NCBI GenBank assembly: GCA_963921275.4
Contig: OZ001293.3
Coordinates: forward strand, 5,888,001-5,952,000
DNA: 64,000 nucleotides
Direction: 5' to 3'
From: an uncultured Hormoscilla sp.
GTDB taxonomy: Bacteria; Cyanobacteriota; Cyanobacteriia; Cyanobacteriales; Desertifilaceae
Part shown: one piece after another, positions 1 through 64,000 of the stretch
Numbering within the stretch: position 1 is the first letter of the stretch
Layout of the letters: the number at the start of each line of letters is the position of its first letter
The notes under the pieces: model-generated
Database searches by the model: none
The model's input: only the letters and a program-made list of their open reading frames with translations
What the model was told of the DNA's origin: nothing
Position numbers and translations under genes: made by a program

Positions 1-241
1 AGATTTGCTTGCTCTAGCCTTGGGTATCTTTCCTAGCGGAGTCACCGGCTTAGGCTGCCAGTTATCCTGCATTTGAGTCCTCGCTTGGCACCACGGCGAT
101 GTTGCTCCGTAGCACTGAGGACCGGTGTCACCCCCGTACCTGGGGGAGGGGAATTTAACCCCCATGATGATCAGAGTTATCTGGCTAATGGAACCAGACC
201 CGACTTTCACCATTACTGGTTTACGCCGGAACGAATCGCAC
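1..241 (-). mobile_element. Group II intron, 5' part (domain I), inserted in recJ; runs off the window
   Basis: The minus strand begins GTGCGATTCGTT at 241 and is colinear with the 5' part of the complete copy at 43359-44229. Confidence 0.9.
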
Positions 242-423
242 AATCTGGATCTAAATATACTTTGGCTTCTGCTGGCGTCTGAATGCCGCGATTAATCAGC
301 ACTTGGGCTAGCAGGGGTGGGAGTCCCGTTGCTTGGGCTAACTGGTGGATCTTGCTTGGCAAGATCGGATATATGTGCCATCGCTGGTTGGGGAGGTGAA
401 ATGATCTGCTGTCTTTTACATGC
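242..423 (-). CDS. recJ: ssDNA exonuclease RecJ, 5' exon
   Basis: LPNQRW..LAQATGLPPLLAQVLINRGIQTPAEAKVYLDPD resembles the cyanobacterial RecJ N-terminus. Similarity stops at the intron start. Confidence 0.75.
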
Positions 424-628
424 ATCGAAGCTTCCTCAAATTTACAGTTTACCACTAATTGCTAATTGCTAATTGTTCATTGCTAATTGCTAATGGACAT
501 GAATATGAGTTTTTGCTTCCCTAAGGATCCCTCACCCTTTAGGATTCTGTTGGCGAAGGTCGGGGATTACCCCCTGGTCAGCAGCTCCAACTGCTGACCG
601 CATGAGGTCCTAGACTAGTAAAAGGAGA

Positions 629-1320
629 GGCTCTTCTCAATCTAGTATGCTAGATTGAGGCTAAAAGCACCAGGAAAGGAGACTACGCAAGCGAAAATTT
701 TCCAGATTTCTGAATCCATATCCCTTACGTTTGATTAACTTGAGACGGTTATTTATTCCTGACACAGTCCCTTGAGTTTTCCCCGATTCATTATCACCTA
801 CAATTTCTCCGAACCATCTAATAATTGTCTTCACACGAGAAAATCCTCTCTTGCCTCTAGGATCCAATCGAGGATTTGTAAGGTAGGATTTTCCGACTTT
901 TTGGACCTCTCATATATGTAGCTGATCCTCGGTACATTTTTCCCAATTTGGGAATTTTTTCTTGAATTTATTTCAGCTTAATTTCTTATTTTTTTTTTAA
1001 GCTTTCTTAATTTTTATGAGCTTTATTTTTATTTAATACTGATGATATTTATTTTTTTTCTGACTTTAAGTTTTTTAGCTTCATTCTTGATTTGTTTTCG
1101 ACAATTATCTAGCTCTTCATTTACTTGCTTAGTCAGGTGAAAATGGTCAGCTATAACTTCAGTATTAGGCATCAATTCTTCCACTAAACTTTGATACGGT
1201 TTCCACATACTCACTTCTTCAATACCATTCAACACCTCGGGACCCCATGATAGCAAGAATTCTCGCAGATATTCTTGTCGCCGAGACTTCACTATTTCCA
1301 GAAGTTTGATCGCCATACTA
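629..1320 (-). mobile_element. ISL3-family transposase remnant (frameshifted)
   Basis: ADHFHLTKQVNEELD and GINNRLKLIKRKGYGFRNLENFRLR motifs occur in broken frames. Confidence 0.85.
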
Positions 1321-1339
1321 GGCTCTCTGCTACAAAAGC

Positions 1340-1520
1340 CTATTGCTGCACCCAAACTTGTCGCAGAATTTCTACCCTATCCAGCCCTTGTAACTTTTGA
1401 GTAGTTGCCCAGTTATAAATAGCCTCTAAAATTAAGTGTCCGTCTGCACCAATGGCTAGGGCTAATTCCTCTTGTTCTTTTTCTCTATGGCTGCGCCACG
1501 CTGCGCGATTGGGTAATCGA
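1340..1520 (-). mobile_element. IS1182-like transposase fragment
   Basis: YRLP..ALAIGADGHLILEAIY..VEILRQVWVQQ. Confidence 0.6.
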
Positions 1521-2514
1521 TATTGCATTACGCAAATACATTAGGACATTCTCGAAAGGCAGCATCAATGCAGTCTTGGAAATTCTCAAATTCCTTTATC
1601 CTTTGTTTCATCCAATTCTTGAGAACAAACCACCAATGCTCTCTTTTATTAAGATCGGGAGAAGAGGTTGGTAAGTATAACAGCTCGCATCCAGCCGACT
1701 CAATTAGTTCCCTAACGAATATTGACTTATGAAAACTTGCATTTTCAATAATAACTACATTTCCCTCCTCAAGTTGAGAGATTAAACAGAATTCTACCCA
1801 AAATTCAAATAAATCCTTGTTACAACCTCCACTAAATACTAAAGGAGCAAAGACCTTATCTTCTCTCTGCGCCGCTATCCAACTGACTCTCTCGGTTCGT
1901 TTTCCGGATTTTATTGCGTAAAATCTTTCTCCTCGGATCGCAGTAATCATAGGGGTATTCTTCTCTGTTATCTATTCCTGCGATGTCTCCGGAGAGCGCT
2001 AATCGCACTACTCCTGAGACATCGCCTCATCAACGTATATTCTCTTATTTTTTTCGAGATTATCTAGTTTTCGCAAAAACTCTTGACGTTTTTCTTCATC
2101 TCTTTCCCGATATCCATAGGTCTTTTTTTTTCTGCTTATCCCTAACCAAAGCATGGTTCTACTAATATTTGGTTGCGTAACACAATATGGCCATCTCTTT
2201 TTGAGTTTTATCTCCATGCTCCTTTCTAAACGCACGAAACTTTTCTTGATTGTTGATTTTGGGTTGAGGATCTTTGCGACTGGCTGTTTTAGCCTGAAAA
2301 TTTCCAGTCTCAGCCTCTCTTTTCAACCAAAGGTCCAGAGTCTTCCTGCTAATATTGAGTTTTCGACATATGTTTGTTTTTCGTTCACCTCGTTTATAAG
2401 CTTCGATTGCCTTTTTCCGAAAATCATAGCTGTAAGGGGCCGGCATTATTATTCTCCTCGAATCGGTCTTCTTGTTTTACATTATACGTCCTAAGCTGCT
2501 TTGGTAGTGCTATA
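1521..2514 (-). mobile_element. IS630-family element, transposase fragmented
   Basis: MPAPYSYDFRKK HTH; YVDEA|GIDN split by a 44-nt palindromic insert; LYLPTSSPDLN. Imperfect TA-ended TIRs (TATTGCATTACGC.. / ..GGTAGTGCTATA). Confidence 0.85.
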
Positions 2515-2996
2515 TAAGAACTACTTTCTCCTGAGATTTCCTACTATCACCGACCTACGTCTGCGTATCCTAGGCATTACCCCAGACATTTGCTTCTTAG
2601 GCCATGCCTCCCCACCTGGACATACGCTTCACATCTGGTTGGTCCCTAGGGACAGTACCACGGGGGTTACTTCGTTCCCAAACGTCATATCTCGATGTCT
2701 TTAGGTCTCCTCTCTAAGCTGGCAGTTGTTTGTGTACAAAACTAATGAAAGCTAAGCATCAGTCCTAACTGCTTGCACTTTTGTGCCCGGTGTATCAGCC
2801 TTATTTCACCGGTTTTTTCTTACGACCCTTACAAGGATTTGCCTGTTCTAACCATGGACATCTTTCCTAGCGGCGTTACCTCCTCAGGGCTGGAAGCTAT
2901 CCTACATTTACCCTCGCTCAGCACCATGGTGATGTTGCTCCACAGCACCGATTTTTCCGGAACGGTGGGCCAATGTCACCCCTGTACATGGGGGAA

Positions 2997-5755
2997 ATTA
3001 GGGGTCGAGCTGGGAATCGCTCCCCAACCCTCCCATTCGGAACCTAAAGAGCGACTTTCATCGCACACGGCTACTGGGTATCAGGCCCGTTGTCATAGGT
3101 AGCCTTACTGGGGATTACTCCTGTTGGCCCTTACTACTTGTGATTTAGCCCCTTTCCTGGTTAACCAGTAACTCATTCCTCGATTACATTTGTAACGGGC
3201 TTATGATCTTTTGGGTTTACTCTCACCAGTAGTATCCTGATATCACCGACCCGCGTCTGCATATCCTGAGCATTACCCCAGGCTTTAGCTTCTCGGGCCA
3301 TCTCTCCCTTCATGCCTTGCGCTTCACATCTGACTGGTCCAGTAGGACAGAACACGAAGGGTTACTTCGTTCCCTGGTATCATTTCACGATGCCTTTAGG
3401 CCCCTACTTTTCCCCGGCAGTTATTTGGGTACAATGTTAGCCAATTCCCTAACTAACACTAACTGCATTAACTTTTGTTCCAGCGCATTAAGCCTTATTT
3501 CGCTGGTTGGGTTTAACGAGGTTTACATAGGTTCGCCTGTTCTAGCCATGGACATCATCGAGCGCGTCCTCACCGGTAAGGGCTACCAGTTATCCTACAT
3601 TTGAGTTCTCGCTTAGCACCACGACGATGTTATTTCGCAGCACCTCCAACCGGTGTTACCCCCGTACCTGGGGCTATGCCTTACTCACATATTTCTTAAC
3701 AATTGTAGCAACAGTCACGATTGGCAAATATGAGTCTATTGTTTTTTCAATAAAACCTATATATTATCAATAAGCCCGCCATTGAATTGAATATCTGGTG
3801 AAGAGTCAGCTCCTTTTTTGTTTGAGCACAAGTCTTTTGAGTAATTGTACCAGTTCACCACAAGAAATTCTTCTATAAAGTTGTGAACTGGCACGGTTCA
3901 TTCAGTTCTACTTCCGGCGCTCAATTGTCAGATAAGGACCGGACTATTGACGACCGTCCGGGCGAGAGAGCGAATTTACACTTATGGAGTTAAACATACT
4001 TTTTCATATTTTGGGACAGAGGCGAATCTAGAGAATCGCTTGAGCTAGAATTCAAGTATCAGCTATGTCATGCAAGCGTCGTAACCCTTGCCAAATAGTT
4101 TTCACCCCTGGTTCACCATCCCGTTTTCGTCCTAAAAAACCACCTAATTTAGCAATCCAATGAATACAAGTCTTTATTGTTGGCGTCGCCTCTAGTGGTG
4201 TCAAAGTTTTATTTATCGTGCAGTAAAGAGCTTGCTACTCATGGGTTTCTAAAATACTATCTGCTGGGGCCTCCGGGTTGTAACGAGCTTCATAAGTAAG
4301 CCACAATAATCGCCATGCCACGATTGTATAAGTGGCTAAAGCCCTTTCAATGCGATCTGCTGTTTCTAGTTGTAGTTGTTCTTTTCGACAACCACTTTTT
4401 AGGACATAATGATAACGTTCAATTAACCAACGATAGCTATACCAACGCAGGCACCACGTCATCAAAGCCAGTAATCGTCAGCGTCGTTAACAACAACCAG
4501 CTAACCCGGTCAACTCCAGAAGGTGGATGCTCTTCTTCTGCCAGAATTACTTGTATTTTAATTGGCTTTAATGATTTGTAGTGAATATGTGTTTTGGGTG
4601 GTTGAATCTCTACCGAAGTGCTACCCAGGGTTAAGGTTGCTTCGCGAGCCTTTCTCTCGGGATTTTTTGATAATTCTATCGTCACAACTCCTACGGGAGA
4701 AACTTTGTAGATAGCTGATTCTAATTTCTCTACTTCCTCTGAATCAACTGATTTTACAGAACGGTTCTAATAAGCGCGAATTAGAAGCATGCTCTGAATT
4801 CTCAGAGCGAGGCAAGGCCAAAAAATCATAAATATCTGCCTCCCGATCCGCCACTGTCACCACTGTAACATCTGATGGTATCACTGCTTCCGTTGCCGAT
4901 AGCGAGTCCAGCCACCGCTGGCTTTCTTTATCTTTTGTTTCTATGAATCTGTCGAGAATGCTTCTTGCCAATATCAGAAATATCCCGTGCCCTGCTGATT
5001 TAACACTCAAGGGCGGTACTCCTGTCCCACTGGTACAAAAAACCGAGTGAACTTTTAGTTCTCGACTGGTTCTACAATTCCATTTGCCCCATTCCTTTTT
5101 TACTGGGATGGTGCGTAAAATTTAGTTCGGTGGTGTCCTGAATTGCTAAAATCGTTTCATGTTGTTTGACTCGGGAGAGCGTACTTTGTTGGTGGCAATC
5201 GCGAATCGCTTCCGCTTGAATCTGTGGATTTGCCCAAAAGTCATTTGTGCTTGGGTCCCTGCCCAATCTCCACAAGCTTGTGGTACCGTAGCATTGGGTT
5301 GTTCTGCTAAATCTGATACAATTTTTACCAGTATGAATGTGGCGACGGCGATCGCCCAAATCAGCAGATTTTAGTTCTTCTGCGGCCCAAGACTTCATAT
5401 TTTTCTGTCCATGGATAATTTTTGCTCTTCGTGCTCTCTACAATATTAGCAACGCCAGAAGCAAGAGTCGTTTTATTTAATCATTATTTTACTTTTTAGC
5501 ACTGGCGAGGGTTCCGACAGCGCGTAGCGCATTTCGTATCGGACTATATATTAACTTAGTGGAAGTATATTGTTAACTTTTTTGAAGCAATTGTACTCAA
5601 ATCAAGACGGTGTAAGGATTTCAGATTGTTAAGAAATATGTGAGTAAAGCATAGGTACCTGGGGAGGGGGAATTAAACCCCCATGATTACCAGAGTTCCT
5701 AGTTTCCTAGGCCAGCGTTCCGTATATGACTACGTTAGGCTGGAACTCATCGCAC
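2997..5755 (-). mobile_element. Inner ORF-less group II intron (twintron), interrupted by IS4
   Basis: 5' GTGCGATGAGTT at 5755. Domain V (AGCCGTGTGCGATGAAAGTCGC) and domain VI end ..CTCGACCCCTAAT at 2997. EBS1 at 3443-3449 matches the flank GATTCCC. Confidence 0.92.
3674..5654 (-). mobile_element. IS4-family (IS50/Tn5-like) element, transposase frameshifted
   Basis: ~30-bp TIRs CTATGC(C/T)TTACTCACATATTTCTTAACAAT; 10-bp TSD GTACCTGGGG at 3664-3673 and 5655-5664; motifs IQDTTELNF, VADREADIY, YSYRWLIERYHYVLKSGC. Confidence 0.95.
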
Positions 5756-11937: not shown

Positions 11938-12180
11938 GGAGTAGCTCAGTCATTCCGTGGAGTAACTCAGTCATTCCTTGGAATGCTGAGTTACTCCGTG
12001 GAGGGAGTGAGTTATTAAGGTGGAGGGAGTCCCTATTAAGGTGGAGGGAGTCCCTATTAAGGTGGAGGGAGTCCCTATTAAGGTGGAGGGAGTCCCTTAT
12101 TCCGTGGAGGAAGTTACTCCGAAGGTAGAGAGAGGCACTCCAAACGGAGGAAATGAGTTATTCCGTGGAGGGAGTCATTT
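11938..12180. repeat. Degenerate 21-bp tandem array of palindromic units
   Basis: GGAGTAACTCAGTCATTCCNN units grade into about 4 copies of TAAGGTGGAGGGAGTCCCTAT. Confidence 0.85.
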
Positions 12181-24293: not shown

Positions 24294-24437
24294 ATAACGG
24301 GTGCGGCTCCGAATTTTTTGATCAATTTTCGACTCTGGTCGGTAGCGGGCGCTCCCTCCCCAGCGGGGGGAGCAATTTGCCCCCGGGGGGCTGGAGGGGC
24401 TCTTCTTGCCAACGGGCGCAAGACCACACTCCCGATC

Positions 24438-24695
24438 TTACTCCGGCCAAGGAGGTGCTTACTCCGGCCAAGGAGGTGCTTACTCCGGCCAAGGAGGTGC
24501 TTACTCTGGCCAAGGAGTTACTCAACTGCCCTTCGGTAATCTTGTCTCACGCCAAAGCAAAAGGTTGTGACGCCACCGAATGACTCTCGTACTTGGTGGA
24601 ATGATTCAGTTACTCCTGGAAATGAATAGTTACTCCTGGAAATGACTGATTTTTCCAATAACTGAGTCACTCCCTGGAGTGACTCAGTTATTCCC
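24438..24695. repeat. Degenerate 21-bp tandem array
   Basis: TTACTCCGGCCAAGGAGGTGC x3-4, then GGAATGANTCAGTTACTCC-type units homologous (inverted) to 11938-12000. Confidence 0.85.
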
Positions 24696-34184: not shown

Positions 34185-34384
34185 TTATGCTTCAACGAGG
34201 GCTGGTCCCTCGACTTTTATCTCCCAAACGCTGCAAAGACTTACTTTCCGACCTACTCAACCCGAGCAAAAATGGCAATTTTTCCTTGATGGTAGCGATG
34301 GCGGCGAGAACAGCCAGTTTATCTTCAGGGGATAAACTGGCACTAATGCGATTTTCGGTCATCTTCTCCAACTCCGAGGGATGA
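34185..34384 (-). pseudogene. Internally deleted copy of the 160-aa gene cassette
   Basis: MTENRISASLSPEDK..RLGDKSRG is fused to the cassette tail motif GAGGGACCAGCCCTCGTTGAAGC. Confidence 0.85.
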
Positions 34385-57166: not shown

Positions 57167-57901
57167 CTAGGCCTTCATCTGTGAAATAATCTGCAAACTC
57201 ATTTCGCTAGATAACTCCCATTGCCGATTTTCAAGAGCGACTTTCTGTAAAAATATCAGATAGTTCGGCTTGCAAATACAGGGGTTCGGCTTCGGCGTAT
57301 CGTCCTTGGGACTTGTAGAGTCCTGCCAGGCCGTTGAGACTTTTGGCCACATCGGGATGTGCGGACCCCAGCAGTTGCTTTCTCATCTCCAAGGCTTCTT
57401 TATACAGGGGTTCGGCTTCGGCGTATCGTCCTTGGGACTTGTAGAGTCCTGCCAGGTTGTTGAGAATGGTGGCCACATGAGGATGTGCGGACCCCAGCCG
57501 TTGCTTATACATCTCCAAGGCTTCTTTATACAGGGGTTCGGCTTCGGCGTATCGCCCTTGGTCCGAGTAGAGTCCTGCCAGGTTGTTGAGACTTTGGGCC
57601 ACATGGGGATGTGCGGACCCTAGCAGTTGCTTTTGGATCTCCAAGGCTTCCTTATACAGGGGTTCGGCTATGCGCTGCGCGCACGCTGCGCGGACGGCGT
57701 ATCATCCTTGGGAGTAGTAAAGTAAGCCAGGTTGTTGAGACTGGTGGCCACATGGGGATGTGCGGACCCCAGCAGTTGCTTTCTCATTTCCAAGGCTTCG
57801 GTAAGCAGGGGTTCGGCTTCGGCGTATCGCCCTTGGGAGTAGTAGAGTTCTGCCATGTCGTTGAGACTGGCCGTATAATCATTCGACTGTTCGTTTGTCA
57901 T
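57167..57901 (-). pseudogene. Kinesin-light-chain-type TPR protein, frameshifted
   Basis: 42-aa repeats HPxVAxSLNNLAxLYxSQGRYAEAEPLY, with frameshifts, a CGA>TGA change and a 24-nt insert. Confidence 0.88.
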
Positions 57902-58193
57902 ATCGTTCCTCTTTTGTAAATTTGTTAAGCATTATATGATTGCGCTTCAACGAGGGCTAGTCCCTCTTCACCTCTGCGAATCCTTCGACGGTTCGTTTGT
58001 CATATCGTTCCTTCTTTGTAGATTTGTTAAGCATTATATGATTACGCTTCAACGAGCGCTGGTTCCTCTTAACTTTGACCTGTCCGATCGGTGACGAGCC
58101 TAAGTCTCTCTTAACACCGGTCTGTCCTCATGGTCTAACTTGAACCCTCGTCATGGGTGGCCGGGGAGAATGAAACAGACATGTTGGCCTCTT

Positions 58194-58382
58194 GAGAGGT
58201 TTAAAACCTCAACTGAGAGGTTTAAAACCTCAACTGAGAGGTTTAAAACCTCAACCGAGAGGTCTAAAACCTCAACCGAGAGGTCTAAAACCTCAACCGA
58301 GAGGTTTAAAACCCCAATTGAGAGGTTTAAACCCCCAACCGAGAGATTTTCAACCCCAACCGAGAGGTCCAAAACCAGAACA
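58194..58382. repeat. 21-bp tandem array, 9 units
   Basis: Consensus GAGAGGTTTAAAACCTCAAC(C/T) with an internal GAGGTTT-A-AAACCTC palindrome. Confidence 0.95.
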
Positions 58383-58438
58383 GTGAGGCATGGGTTTGTA
58401 GATAGGTGCCGGTTGAGGTCAAAGTACCCTCCCCAGAA

Positions 58439-58921
58439 CTAAGACTCAGGCTGTTGTGACGCCCCACTGCTGGACTTGCGGGCGAACCGACGGGCCATAT
58501 CGTCCACAGCCGCTTCTAACCCCGCATTTCCTTTGGTCGCCTTGGCATAGTTATAAACCTCCAAAGCTGCCATATAAGCCTCGCTTCCTACCACTGCCAC
58601 GGTATCGTCCAGAAGTTCCTGAAGTTGACTTACTGCCAAGACAATGGGATAAAGGGCCTCAAACAGTTCCATATCTTTCCGCATCTCCTCGATATCAAAA
58701 GATCGGGGCAAAAAATCCGGGTTTTGGGTCGCCACTTCCAATGCCTTGACCACAAACCCCCGACTTTTATCTCCCAAACGCGGCAAAGATTTGCTTTCCT
58801 CGGGACTCAACCCGAGCAAAAATGGCAATTTTTCCTTGATTTTAGCGATCGCGGCGAGAACTGCCTGTCGATCTTCAGGCGTTAAACTGGTACTAATTCG
58901 ATTTGCAGTCATCTTGTCCAA
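58439..58921 (-). CDS. Conserved ~160-aa helical protein of unknown function
   Basis: Intact ORF (LPFLLGLSPEE..LGDKS..NPDFLPRSFD..LDDT..GSEAY..VYNYAK) with two paralogous fragments in this window. Confidence 0.85.
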   Translation of the reverse strand: MDKMTANRISTSLTPEDRQAVLAAIAKIKEKLPFLLGLSPEESKSLPRLGDKSRGFVVKALEVATQNPDFLPRSFDIEEMRKDMELFEALYPIVLAVSQLQELLDDTVAVVGSEAYMAALEVYNYAKATKGNAGLEAAVDDMARRFARKSSSGASQQPES

Positions 58922-58954
58922 CTCCGAGGAATGACATCAACTTCTCTATTTTGA

Positions 58955-58986
58955 CCAAGTATATCCTTGGAAAAGGATATACTTGG
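58955..58986. promoter_or_regulatory. Perfect 14-bp inverted repeat upstream of the 160-aa gene
   Basis: CCAAGTATATCCTT-GGAA-AAGGATATACTTGG. Confidence 0.5.
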
Positions 58987-59159: not shown

Positions 59160-59231
59160 ACCCTCAATACTTCTCGGTTAACAACTTGTCATTGCGATTT
59201 TATGCGCTGCGTGGGGGGTCGGACCTGCCCG

Positions 59232-59381
59232 AAGCACTTTAGTGCTTACTACGAACCGCCCCAAGCACTTTAGTGCTTACTACGAACCGCCCCAAGCACT
59301 TTAGTGCTTACTACGAACCGCCCCAAGCACTTTAGTGCTTACTACGAACCGCCCCCAGTAAAGTGCTTACTACGAACCGCC
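59232..59381. repeat. 31-bp tandem REP-like repeats (about 5)
   Basis: AAGCACTTTAGTGCTTACTACGAACCGCCCC units with no unique spacers. Confidence 0.9.
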
Positions 59382-59476
59382 CATCGCTTATCGATTAACA
59401 AAACTTAACTTGCCGAACCGACCGGTTCCGTGTTAAATTTAAGTCAACAAGAAATGAAAACCAAGAAAAGAAGGAG

Positions 59477-60415
59477 ATGTCGGTGATGGAAAAACCAACT
59501 AAGAAAAAACCTACATTCATCAGTCCCACAGTCGATTATGCGTTCAAAAAAATATTTGGCTCTGACAGAAGTGAAGATATTCTGCTCAGCTTCTTGAATG
59601 CAATAATATATAAAGGGGAAAACGTCATATCTTCCTTAACAATTACAAATCCTTACAACCCGGGTCAAGTAAAGACATTAAAGGACAGTTACTTGGATGT
59701 GAGAGCGGTACTAAGAAGTGGAGAGATAGTCCTGATAGAAATGCTAGTAGCACGGGTGCAGGCATTTCACAAGCGAGTGACCTACAATATGTGTAAGTCC
59801 TATGCGAATCAGTTGGATGAAGGAGAATTTTACCTGGGGATAGCACCAGTGATAGCAGTGACTGTAACAGATTTTATCCTGTTCAAGGAAAGCAAATTAA
59901 TTCATCATTTTGTGTTCCGAGAAAAAGAAGAAAAGGGGACAGAGTATCCGGAGCATGAATTACAGCTCGTATTTGTGGAATTGCCAAGATTAAAAAAAGA
60001 GTTGAAAGACCTGATGACCTTAACAGATAAATGGATTTATTTCATTAAACATGCGTCAGAATTAACGGAAGTTCCTCCGACTTTGGGAGAGATAGCAGAA
60101 ATAGACAAGGCATTAAAGATAGCAAAGCTAGTTAATATGGAGCCGGAAGAAGCAGAAGCAGTAATAAGTCGTGCAATAAGTTTGCAAGATGAGATAGGAA
60201 AGATTAAGTATGCAAATGAAGAAGGGCGCATTACTGAAGCAGGGACTTTGGTAATGCGCCTGCTTAAAAAGCGATTTGGAGAAATGACAGAGGAAATAAA
60301 TAGCGTCATAGAAAGTTTGTCGCTGTCAGATTTAGAAAGGTTAACAGAGGATATTTTGGATTTTAATAGTCGGGAAGATTTGTTGCATTGGTTGTCGTCA
60401 GCCTCTAAGTATTAG
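59477..60415 (+). CDS. Rpn-family PD-(D/E)XK nuclease/putative transposase with a DUF4351-like tail
   Basis: DYAFKKIFG, YLDVRA..IEM, FVELP, KWIYFIK, RLLKKRFG..LERLTEDILDF. Confidence 0.9.
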   Translation: MSVMEKPTKKKPTFISPTVDYAFKKIFGSDRSEDILLSFLNAIIYKGENVISSLTITNPYNPGQVKTLKDSYLDVRAVLRSGEIVLIEMLVARVQAFHKRVTYNMCKSYANQLDEGEFYLGIAPVIAVTVTDFILFKESKLIHHFVFREKEEKGTEYPEHELQLVFVELPRLKKELKDLMTLTDKWIYFIKHASELTEVPPTLGEIAEIDKALKIAKLVNMEPEEAEAVISRAISLQDEIGKIKYANEEGRITEAGTLVMRLLKKRFGEMTEEINSVIESLSLSDLERLTEDILDFNSREDLLHWLSSASKY

Positions 60416-60754: not shown

Positions 60755-62343
60755 CTATAGATTAAAACTGCCGAAGCCTTTGTTGTTCTTGCTCTTTTTC
60801 TTTTTCTTCTTAGGAGTCCCGCCGCTGTAGCCCCACTCGTTAGATAACTCCCCTTGCCGATTTTTAAGAGCGACTTGCTGTAAAAACATCAGGTAGTTCT
60901 GCTGAAGTTTCTGAGTAAGGGGATGATCTTGTCCTAGTTGTGAAATCAGAATAGTTACAGCTTCCTTAAACAGGGGTTCGGCTTCGGCGTATCGCCCTTG
61001 GGAGGAGTAGAGTAAAGCCAGGTTGTTGAGACTGCCGGCCATATGGGGATGTGCGGACCCCAGCAGTTGCTTTCTCATCTCCAAGGCTTCCTTATGCAGG
61101 GGTTCGGCTTCTGCGTATCGTCCTTGGGAGTAGTAGAGTTCTGCCAGGCCGTTGAGACTGCTGGCCACATGGGGATGTGCGGACCCCAGTAGTTGCTTAG
61201 ACATCTCCAAGGCTTCCTTAAACAGGGGTTCGGCTTCGGCGTATCGCCCTTGGGAGTCGTAGAGTCCTGCCAGGTTGTTGAGACTGGTGGCCACATTGGG
61301 ATGTGCGGACCCCAGCAGTTGCTTCTGGATCTCCAAGGCTTCCAAATACAGGGGTTCGGCTTCGACGTATCGCCTTTGAGACCTGTAGAGTTCTGCCAGG
61401 TTGTTAAGACTGGCGGCCACATCTGGATGTGCGGACCCCAGCAGTTGCTTTCTCATCTCCAAGGCTTCCAAATACAGGGGTTCGGCTTCGGCGTATCGCC
61501 CTTGGTCCGAGTAGAGTACTGCCAGGTTGTTAAGACTGCCGGCCACATCTGGATGTGCGGACCCCAGCAGTTGCTTTCTCATCTCCAAGGCTTCCTTATA
61601 CAGAGGTTCGGCTTAAACAGGGGTTCGGCTTCGGCGTATCGCCCTTGGGAGTAGTAGAGTCCTGCCAGGTTGTTGAAACTGTTGGCCACATCTGGATGTG
61701 CGGACCCCAGCAGTTGCTTTCTCATCTCCAAGGCTTCCTTATACAGAGGTTCGGCTTCGGCGTATCGCCCTTGGGACTTGTAGAGTAAAGCCAGGTTGTT
61801 GAGACTGGTGGCCACATCGGGATGTTTCGACCCCAGCAGTTGCTTAGACATCTCCAAGGCTTCCTTATACAGGGGTTCGGCTTCGGCATATCGCCCTTGG
61901 AACCTGTAGAATTCTGCCAGGTTGTTGAGACTGGTGGCCACATCGGGATGTTTCGACCCCAGCAGTTGCTTAGACATCTCCAAGGCTTCCTTATACAGAG
62001 GTTCGGCGTCGGCGTATCGTCCTTGGGATTCGTATAGTCCTGCCAGGTTGTTGAGACTGGTGGCTACAGAAGGATGTGCGGACCCCAGCAGTTGCTTTTT
62101 CATCTCCAAGGCTTCCTTAAACAGGGGTTCAGCTTCGGCGTATCGCCCTTGGAACCTGTAGAGTACTGCCAGGTTGTTGAGACTGGTGGCCACATCGGGA
62201 TGTTTCGACCCCAGCAGTTGCTTAGACATCTCCAAGGCTTCGGTAAGCAGGGGTTCGGCTTCGGCGTATCGCCCTTGGGACATGTAGAGTTCTGCCCGGC
62301 TGTTGAGACTGGCCGTATAATCATTCGACGGTTCGTTTGTCAT
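60755..62343 (-). pseudogene. Kinesin-light-chain-type TPR protein, frameshifted by a 17-nt duplication
   Basis: About 11 42-aa repeats; GCCGAACC(C/T)CTGT(T/A)TAA is duplicated near 61597-61630; C-terminus KKKKKKSKNNKGFG. Confidence 0.9.
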
Positions 62344-62376: not shown

Positions 62377-63388
62377 ACTCAAGTTGCGACCTATAAAAAT
62401 TGGATACAAAAAGCTATGATAAAGAGAATTATTTTCAACTCTAATCCCTTAGATGTAACAGCATGAATTGACTTGGGAAACAAATTGGTGATTCGACTAA
62501 AACAGGTTTCAACTTGTTTTCTTGTTACTTTTTGTATATATTCAAAACAAGAATATTCTTTTCTTTTTGAGTTCTTTTTTCGCAAAGGTTTTAACATTAT
62601 ACTTGACGACTCTTTTAGTAAATCCTCTAATTGATAATCATTATAAGCTTTATCTCCATAAACTATTGAATTTGATGGTAAGTCAAAGCCAAAAGATTGC
62701 AAAACTTTAACATCATTATAACTACCAGGATCTAGATAAAATTCTATTGGCTTTCCATTTTTGTTTACCAACATATGAACTCTTAATCCATAAAAATAAC
62801 GTTTTTTACTGGCAATATACCCTCGATATTCTTCCTTGTTATAAATTTGGCATCTATCAATCCTAATATTATCACATACTGGCACCGGGAAACTATCAAG
62901 AATATATTCTTGACCCGGATTGAGCTCTTTAAATGTTTGAGCTATAACTTGGAAGAAAAACATCCAAATTGGTTCGTCAATATTGTGTAATCGACGATTG
63001 AACCTACTTTTACTTAACAGATTTTTTATATACTTGTGTTCGACCATAAATTGACAAGAGCGATCGTGGTGTCCTCCGAAAAAATATGCAGCAACTAATC
63101 CGACTGTCATCACTTCGGCATTGTTCATTTTTACTTGTGGATCTTCTTTTATATTTAACGCTTTTAGTAGCTCGTCACAAAGAACAAAAATTGTTGTAAT
63201 CATATCTTCCATCATCTACATCCCCCAGCAATTAACTATTATTTTAGTACATTATAACCTATAAACAGCCAACCCGCCGTCTAGCACAAAAAAAATATAA
63301 TTTTGTATCAAAAGCTACGAAATATCCCAAATATCTGTAAAGTCTAAGTGGGTAATTCATATTTTTTTTAATAGGTCGCAACTTAGGT
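62377..63388 (-). mobile_element. IS982-family element, transposase intact (62391-63215)
   Basis: TIR AC(TC/CT)AAGTTGCGACCTAT; 9-bp TSD TAAGCATTA; LDSFPVPVC, YFYGLRVH, YGDKAY, RKQVETCFS. Confidence 0.95.
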
Positions 63389-63553
63389 TAAGCATTATAT
63401 GATTACGCTTCAACGAGGGCTAGTCCCTCTTCATCTCTGCTGTCCGATCGGCGACAGGCCCGAGTCTCTCTTAACACAGGTCTGTCTTCATGGTCTAACT
63501 TGAACCCTCATCATGGGTGGCCGGGGAGAATGAAACAGACATGCTGGCCTCTT

Positions 63554-63699
63554 GAGAGGTTTTAAACCCCAACCGAGAGGTCCAAAACCTCAACCGAGAG
63601 GTCCAAAACCTCAACTGAGAGGTCCAAAACCTCAACTGAGAGGTTTAAAACCCCAACCGAGAGGTTTAAACCTCAACCGAGAGGTCCAAAACCAGAACA
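63554..63699. repeat. 21-bp tandem array, 7 units
   Basis: Same consensus as 58194-58382, with a different order and number of variants. Confidence 0.95.
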
Positions 63700-63739
63700 A
63701 ACGGGTTTGCCGGTTGAGATCAAAGTCCCCTCCCCAGAA

Positions 63740-63968
63740 CTAAGACTCAGGCTGTTGTGACGCCCCACCGCTGGACTTGCGGGCGAACCGACGGGCCATA
63801 TCGTCTACCGCCGCTTCTAACCCCGCATCTCCCTTGATGGCCTTGGCATAGTTATAAACCGCCAACCATATAAGCCTCGCTTCCTGCCAAGGCGACTGTA
63901 TCGTCCAGAAGTTCTTGGAGTTGGCTCGAGGCCAAAGTAATAGGATAAAGGGCCTCGAACAACTCCAC
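63740..63968 (-). pseudogene. 3' half of a further copy of the 160-aa gene
   Basis: Colinear with about 58439-58670, with small deletions; replaced by unrelated sequence beyond about 63969. Confidence 0.85.
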
Positions 63969-64000
63969 AGTCTAGAAGAACCAACCGTAAGAATGTAAAC

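What the first reader, a model, noticed from the sequence alone, without database searches (positions are those of the whole stretch)
57894..58986. Cassette of unknown function: 160-aa protein, variable palindromic 21-bp array and conserved non-coding tail
Seen (minus strand): a 14-bp perfect hairpin, the intact gene, about 55 bp, nine 21-bp units each with a GAGGTTT/AAACCTC hairpin, a ~115-bp conserved tail, a GAGGG-ACTAG-CCCTC-type hairpin, then TATAAT and a TPR gene. The second copy (63398-63968) has 7 units with different variants and order but the same terminal unit and a near-identical tail, so the array changes faster than its flanks. A third copy is deleted (34185). There are no spacers, cas genes or recognisable transposase. 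On the gene's strand the array also reads as (LNLSVEV)n. From recollection, similar proteins are widespread hypotheticals. Inference: an undescribed protein-repeat system, in which the array is an RNA or DNA binding scaffold, a regulatory or mobile cassette, or a repeat-peptide partner.
Basis: partly seen in the sequence, partly recalled or inferred. Interest (0 to 1): 0.8.

Follow-up and report, generated by a model that had tools for sequence, protein, structure and literature searches.

The report
SigJ-induced gene with 21-bp palindrome array
A small all-helical protein of no known family sits next to a non-coding array of palindromic repeats spaced exactly 21 bases (two DNA turns) apart in cyanobacteria and at least two other phyla, its gene is switched on strongly when Nostoc forms motile filaments, and the protein likely binds and coats its own array.

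Summary
The gene and array are real and their linkage is general. 69 of 76 cyanobacterial homologs have a period-21 array within 600 bp downstream, against 3 of 76 upstream and 12 of 279 distant windows. Arrays also flank homologs from Acidobacteriota and Verrucomicrobiota clusters. Unit sequence turns over completely, but the 21-bp period, dyad symmetry and roughly 150-340 bp length persist. The array is not coding, shows no selected RNA fold, occurs in both orientations, and lies upstream of six genes. The 157-aa protein (3,460 clusters at 50% identity) matches no family or fold. Most cyanobacterial copies carry a SigJ J-Box, and all four copies in genome G319 are SigJ-dependent and induced 15-80-fold in hormogonia in published RNA-seq (PMC6495340 supplements); the window's copies lack the J-Box. 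The 14-bp hairpin and the 'conserved tail' are Hormoscilla-lineage features, not part of the system. Best reading: a DNA-binding protein that polymerises on its own phased array; binding is untested.

The parts
58439..58912 (-). Gene for 157-aa all-helical protein with basic C-terminal tail; no known family or fold
58194..58382 (-). Array of nine 21-bp quasi-palindromic units (core GAGGTTT-n-AAACCTC), exact phase
58383..58438 (-). Leader between stop codon and array; looks like degenerate units; also carried by many gene-less arrays in this genome
58075..58193 (-). Tail; shared only among Hormoscilla-type copies, so not a family-wide element
58955..58986 (-). 14-bp perfect hairpin upstream of the gene; other Hormoscilla copies keep only about 8 bp of it; not conserved in the family
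57877..58070 (-). Duplicated 102-bp promoter/start module of the downstream TPR gene (TATAAT); neighbour, not part of the cassette
63554..63699 (-). Second array, seven units
63740..63971 (-). Second gene copy: 3' half only, frameshifted
34207..34362 (-). Third copy: 5' third of gene; rest of gene, array and tail deleted

Best explanation
The gene and a non-coding 21-bp-period palindromic array form a two-part cassette, and the protein likely binds the array as double-stranded DNA and polymerises along it. Shown: linkage, fixed period, dyad symmetry, bounded length, non-coding status, either orientation, either side of the gene, and SigJ-dependent induction of relatives in hormogonia. Inferred: with an odd period of 21 the two-fold axes fall every 10.5 bp, on one face of B-DNA, which would suit head-to-head/tail-to-tail dimers; the 52-residue helix (about 78 A if straight) would span about one 21-bp unit (about 71 A) and so fix the period while the sequence drifts; the basic RFARK-type tail would contact DNA. 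The likely purpose is to nucleate a nucleoprotein filament at that locus during a dispersal or stress state (local chromosome compaction or anchoring, possibly with feedback on its own expression).
For: Linkage 69/76 vs 3/76 and 12/279; in 80 non-redundant genes with full flanks 75 score an array on some side and the best period is 21, 42 or 63 in 74. Unit similarity falls to the shuffled level below 50% protein identity (0.41 vs 0.40) while period stays 21; 716 of 756 unit spacings are multiples of 21, only 12 other multiples of 7. Dyad symmetry p<0.05 in 58 of 86 arrays; orientation 56 vs 30; mirror positions co-vary across 71 loci. Six genes in three genomes have the array upstream, in L094 and L095 upstream of a J-Box. 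Four arrays sit behind an inserted gene (L014, L038, L126, L220). In L217 the feature that by elimination overlies the array (Npun_R5805) reaches 19 against 3604 for the gene. Confident all-helical model, pLDDT 93, helix 74-125; residues 141-152 net +4.
Against: No binding was shown or modelled. The protein as a whole is slightly acidic (net -2) and matches no known DNA-binding fold. Two of three arrays adjacent to their gene in G319 appear to be transcribed with it at about 30% of the gene's level, and most arrays lie downstream, which fits an RNA role. 4 of 7 re-examined genes have no array in the DNA held. The spacing count is partly circular because arrays were picked by period 21. Loci are mostly related cyanobacteria, so counts overstate independence. 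The window's copies lack the J-Box.
Confidence: 0.45

Rival explanations
1. The array acts as RNA: a 3' UTR of repeated short hairpins that the protein binds (a scaffold, stability switch, or a type III antitoxin-like sponge).
For: Predicted RNAs listed directly downstream of Npun_R1178 (21 to 635, 16 in the sigJ mutant) and Npun_F0426 after F0425 (12 to 346, 1 in the mutant) are SigJ-dependent in directional RNA-seq. 65 of 80 arrays are downstream only. Arrays fold stably, 71 of 91 with z<-2. All transition mismatches in the window's in-register units are G.T on the sense strand.
Against: Unit order does not matter for folding (median z -0.4). G.T vs A.C mismatches are 347 vs 247, not one-sided per array (p=0.21), and array skew tracks the gene's silent-site skew (rho 0.50), so the wobble signal looks mutational. 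17 of 91 arrays are A+C-rich on the sense strand. Arrays upstream of the promoter are outside the mRNA. No Rfam match in 10 loci. The supplement gives no coordinates for the predicted RNAs.
Confidence: 0.27
2. A selfish or mobile cassette in the manner of RAYT/REP: the protein moves or amplifies the palindromes and the array is its substrate or product.
For: Patchy, multi-copy distribution (20 of 301 genomes, 1-9 matches each); no conserved neighbour; 21 gene-less arrays in this genome; HIP1 sites enriched at both ends (15/68 vs 388/6066; 22/79 vs 27/237); a near-invariant Tyr120.
Against: All-helical, no conserved His pair or acidic triad. 16 of 24 arrays here lie within 250 bp of a MITE-like terminal repeat, which explains their spread without this protein. 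Paralogs in one genome are 40-65% identical with different units, so they are old. All four G319 copies stay under a host developmental sigma factor.
Confidence: 0.12
3. The array encodes a 7-residue-repeat peptide that partners the protein.
For: 21 bp is 7 codons; some arrays are open and probably annotated as ORFs.
Against: At least one open frame in 58 of 85 arrays vs 57.5 +/- 3.8 expected; no frame open in more than 36 of 71 loci and peptides differ; no period-3 signal; stops in the LNLSVEV frame of close relatives.
Confidence: 0.05
4. A neutral minisatellite inherited next to the gene from one ancestor.
For: Arrays homogenise and vary in copy number like VNTRs; some genes lack one.
Against: Period, symmetry and length persist after sequence similarity is lost and across at least three phyla.
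Confidence: 0.06

Closest known systems
Centromere-binding protein plus tandem DNA site (type II/III partition adaptors ParR/parC, TubR/tubC; recalled, no paper read)
   Same: Small gene next to a phased tandem array; paralogs with different units; cooperative filament is the proposed mode.
   Different: No NTPase or any conserved partner gene; chromosomal, almost absent from plasmids and phages; no Pfam or fold match; under a developmental sigma factor.
Developmental or domain-organising DNA binders RacA/ram and MatP/matS, and H-NS-type filaments (recalled)
   Same: Small helical proteins with long coiled-coil helices; palindromic sites; RacA is developmentally induced.
   Different: Their sites are dispersed or sequence-loose, not one array beside the gene; no sequence or structure match.
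RAYT/REP(IN) systems (PMC3116915, passages read)
   Same: One gene flanked by its own flavour of short palindromes; several distinct pairs per genome; copies elsewhere in the genome.
   Different: No HUH/Y1 transposase features; contiguous 21-bp tandem array, not REP doublets.
Type III toxin-antitoxin (ToxIN, CptIN, TenpIN; recalled)
   Same: About 160-aa protein with a tandem non-coding repeat array, orthogonal pairs.
   Different: Array here is mostly downstream and at lower level than the gene, either orientation, 21-bp palindromes; no Pfam, PADLOC or Rfam match.
SigJ regulon / J-Box (PMC6495340: passages and both data supplements in part)
   Same: Family members Npun_R1178, R5806, F0425 and F2482 are listed there as hypothetical proteins in SigJ cluster 12.
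   Different: The passages read do not discuss them; the four locus tags searched by pairs of spellings for three of them gave no relevant paper.
Cyanobacterial STRR heptamers and small dispersed repeats (SDR; recalled, primary paper not held)
   Same: 7-bp sub-period; short palindromic repeats spread in the genome.
   Different: Tied to one gene family, unit differs between paralogs, present outside cyanobacteria. Overlap with a named SDR family could not be checked.

Membership tests
CRISPR array / TIGR array | Repeats separated by unique spacers | tested here: not met
   Units are contiguous variants of one 21-mer
CRISPR array / TIGR array | Conserved cas or Nop-domain gene | tested here: not met
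   No Pfam family for 134 members, no conserved neighbour
Partition cassette (ParMRC, TubZRC, ParABS) | NTPase gene in the cassette | tested here: not met
   No conserved neighbour in 80 loci
Partition cassette (ParMRC, TubZRC, ParABS) | Tandem phased site next to the adaptor gene | tested here: met
Partition cassette (ParMRC, TubZRC, ParABS) | RHH or HTH DNA-binding fold | tested here: inconclusive
   No match by sequence or fold; best Z 5.3
Partition cassette (ParMRC, TubZRC, ParABS) | Protein binds the array | not testable with these tools
   needs EMSA or ChIP
RAYT/REP | HUH motif plus catalytic Tyr, Y1 transposase family | tested here: not met
   No conserved His, no strand in the model, no Pfam hit; only Tyr120 conserved
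RAYT/REP | Cognate palindromes dispersed in the genome | tested here: met
   24 arrays in G000, but 16 beside MITE-like ends; tested in this genome only
Type III toxin-antitoxin | Repeat array upstream of the gene, then a terminator | tested here: not met
   65 of 80 downstream only
Type III toxin-antitoxin | ToxN/CptN/TenpN family and Rfam antitoxin | tested here: not met
Type III toxin-antitoxin | Toxicity neutralised by array RNA | not testable with these tools
   bench test
Coding minisatellite (heptad peptide) | One frame kept open with conserved peptide | tested here: not met
SigJ regulon | J-Box about 40 nt upstream of the start | tested here: met
   53 of 79 low-GC genes vs 3 of 237 control windows; not met for the window's own copies
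SigJ regulon | Induction lost in a sigJ mutant | tested here: met
   4 of 4 G319 homologs in PMC6495340 Data Set S1; published data, other organism
SDR/STRR repeats | Sequence identity to a described family | not tested
   primary paper not held

The most novel reading that the evidence does not exclude
A new, multi-phylum class of self-contained 'ruler protein plus helically phased array' modules: each paralog builds an orthogonal filament on its own 21-bp array, the long helix sets the period, and in filamentous cyanobacteria SigJ deploys several of them at once to reorganise or anchor the chromosome in hormogonia. That would also be a family of thousands of natural orthogonal protein-array pairs.
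Probability: 0.3. Interest if true: 0.88.

Novelty: categorically new. Interest (0 to 1): 0.74.

Why it matters
It ties a very large uncharacterised protein family (3,460 clusters at 50% identity) to a conserved non-coding partner whose geometry, not sequence, is preserved, and to a defined developmental regulon in a genetically tractable organism with four copies. That makes the function directly testable, may bear on how DNA is handled in hormogonia, and could supply orthogonal protein-repeat pairs for engineering.

Tried and rejected
Family and fold searches gave nothing: Pfam, NCBIfam, PADLOC, PDB sequences, Foldseek PDB and viral, VIA wide (best Z 5.3-5.5, generic helices), ESM Atlas named clusters; absence does not show a new fold. 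UniRef's 'methyl-accepting chemotaxis protein' label on some members has no Pfam support. No fused forms among 7,997 long candidates (weak). No homolog in viral contigs or phages; one plasmid, whose gene has no clear array (68). Rfam: none in 10 loci. My early reading of G.U wobble as proof of RNA structure was dropped. A conserved tail or upstream hairpin was rejected. RNA contigs laid on L073 covered upstream DNA equally and were uninformative. The protein tree was a quick, poorly resolved one and is not used. Literature searches for a description of this module found none (open-access library only). Elhai's SDR paper was not held. PHROGs was not scanned; Bacteroidota homologs suggested by the Atlas were not examined for arrays.

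Full report
Observation. The minus strand carries a gene at 58439-58912 (157 aa from ATG; 160 from an upstream TTG), a 56-bp leader and nine 21-bp units at 58382-58194 in exact phase. A second array of seven units lies at 63699-63554 behind a frameshifted gene half, and a third copy at 34362-34207 is deleted after the first third of the gene. A fourth, intact copy lies outside the window. The nearest named relatives are Hormoscilla cyanobacteria. The genome has 24 arrays of this unit; 3 are beside a gene or remnant, and 16 of 24 lie within 250 bp of a MITE-like terminal repeat, many with the cassette's leader, so the solo arrays look like captured pieces.

The protein. 1,277 homologs by word search and 3,460 clusters at 50% identity by profile. 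No Pfam, NCBIfam or PADLOC family. With 134 sequences AlphaFold2 gives pLDDT 93: five helices, one of 52 residues. No structural match stands out. Residues 141-152 carry net +4, the whole protein about -2. It was found in 20 of 301 sampled genomes of the phylum, with 1-9 matches each, and not in phage or viral collections.

The linkage is general. In 80 cyanobacterial loci, a period-21 array follows the gene in 69 of 76 with enough flank, against 3 of 76 upstream and 12 of 279 distant windows; the spectrum peaks at 21 and 42 with minor peaks at 7, 14, 28, 35 and none at 3. Pooling 211 genes into 101 clusters at 90% identity, 80 have full flanks: 65 downstream only, 8 upstream only, 2 both, 5 neither; the best period is 21, 42 or 63 in 74. 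The two 'both' cases have unrelated upstream repeats; two upstream cases trail a broken paralog, leaving six true upstream arrays in three genomes. Of 7 genes without an adjacent array that I re-examined, 3 have it behind an inserted gene and 4 have none in the DNA held; L220 is a fourth displaced case. Loci whose 90% clusters are named Pyrinomonadaceae/Acidobacteriota (L147, L166, L203) and Verrucomicrobiota (L207, weak array) also have arrays (4 of 10 looked-up genes had a taxon name). No neighbour gene is conserved and orientation of neighbours is random; among 78 of the 149 nearest neighbours scanned, HNH, PIN, DUF5615, DUF559, Uma2 and TIR/TPR genes recur.

What is conserved in the array. 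Not the sequence: unit similarity drops from 0.59 to 0.41 (shuffled 0.40) as protein identity falls below 50%, and paralogs in G319 have different units. Conserved are the period (716 of 756 spacings are multiples of 21; partly circular), dyad symmetry (58 of 86 arrays p<0.05), a 7-bp sub-period (0.34 vs 0.25), mirror-position covariation (kin not independent) and length (median 245 bp, 10th-90th percentile 150-342, n=91). Against one shared matrix 56 arrays read one way and 30 the other.

Not coding. 58 of 85 arrays have an open frame vs 57.5 +/- 3.8 by column shuffling; no frame is open in more than 36 of 71 loci.

RNA or DNA. Arrays fold stably (71 of 91 z<-2), but shuffling unit order changes little (median z -0.4 sense, -0.3 antisense; 12 and 11 of 83 below -2). 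G.T mismatches exceed A.C only 347 to 247, are not one-sided per array, and the skew follows the gene's silent sites. Upstream arrays lie outside the mRNA. These points favour DNA. Against that, most arrays are downstream and some are transcribed (below).

Regulation. 53 of 79 low-GC genes have a GGG-A--T motif, mostly 37-46 nt before the start, vs 3 of 237 control windows. It matches the SigJ J-Box of PMC6495340 (passages read). Genome G319 has four homologs whose promoters match rows of that paper's Data Set S2A in sequence and coordinate: Npun_R1178, R5806, F2482, F0425, all in SigJ cluster 12. Data Set S1, wild type 0 h to 12 h (sigJ mutant at 12 h): 29 to 2098 (21), 45 to 3604 (26), 9 to 134 (2), 44 to 1072 (4). 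F2482 has an internal stop. Unplaced 'predicted RNA' rows just downstream of R1178 and R5806, and F0426 after F0425, rise in parallel at 26-32% of the gene (directional libraries). For R1178 and F0425 this probably includes the array; for R5806 the ORF that by elimination overlies the array reaches only 19, so that array is barely transcribed. These placements are inferred from row order. The window's copies have no J-Box, so their control is unknown.

Parts that do not belong. The tail, leader sequence and upstream hairpin match only Hormoscilla-type loci; inverted repeats of 10 bp or more upstream occur in 1 of 80 genes, as in controls; the TATAAT module also precedes another TPR gene.

Mechanism. 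Shown: a gene plus phased palindromic non-coding array, developmentally induced in Nostoc. Inferred: dyads every 10.5 bp face one side of B-DNA; a dimer with a long helix near the length of one unit and basic tails would bind cooperatively and form a filament nucleated at the array (0.45). Rivals: RNA scaffold or sponge in the 3' UTR (0.27), RAYT-like mobile pair (0.12), neutral minisatellite (0.06), repeat peptide (0.05). Binding and self-assembly were not tested.

Comparison and novelty. It resembles centromere-adaptor pairs, RacA/MatP, RAYT/REP and type III toxin-antitoxin systems in layout (all but RAYT/REP recalled, not read), and fails a defining test of each that could be tested. Eight searches of the open-access library found no description; subscription papers, including the SDR paper, were out of reach. 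Earlier scan notes: none by sequence or place; two by words report 21-bp arrays beside small helical genes in other phyla, unverified and not shown to be this family.

Noticed in passing
G000:C1, e.g. 758346-758492, 2350732-2350899, 4398392-4398559, 5427795-5427941: Gene-less copies of leader plus array sit inside or beside a MITE-like element with GTGTGGTC/GACCACAC ends (255 such cores genome-wide).
   Followed up: partly
window 62391-63215: IS transposase (PF13612/PF01609) inserted between the second cassette's tail and the TPR gene, splitting the promoter module.
   Followed up: partly
window 57231-57901 and 60755-62343: TPR_10/12 genes made of near-identical 126-bp repeats, broken by frameshifts, a 143-bp duplication and a small GC-rich insertion.
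   Followed up: no
window 59477-60415: Rpn/PD-(D/E)XK family gene with DUF4351, divergent from the cassette; five 31-bp repeats at 59227-59382 lie between them.
   Followed up: no
window 11938-12134 and 24437-24517: Other period-21 repeats of unrelated sequence in the window; not examined.
   Followed up: no
L001-L080 flanks: HIP1 sites are enriched just before the promoter and just after the array, suggesting they bound the cassette.
   Followed up: partly
L038, L126, L220, L014: DUF559-type genes or an HTH operon inserted between gene and array; in L220 the DUF559-type gene (probably Npun_F2483) is co-induced by read-through.
   Followed up: partly
L133:2-793: A homolog with array lies divergent to a gene that looks like type I-E cas1 (by eye, not scanned).
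   Followed up: no
   Followed up: no
L096, L116, L117, L119, L129: A clade where the unit has become a strict 42-bp doublet.
   Followed up: partly
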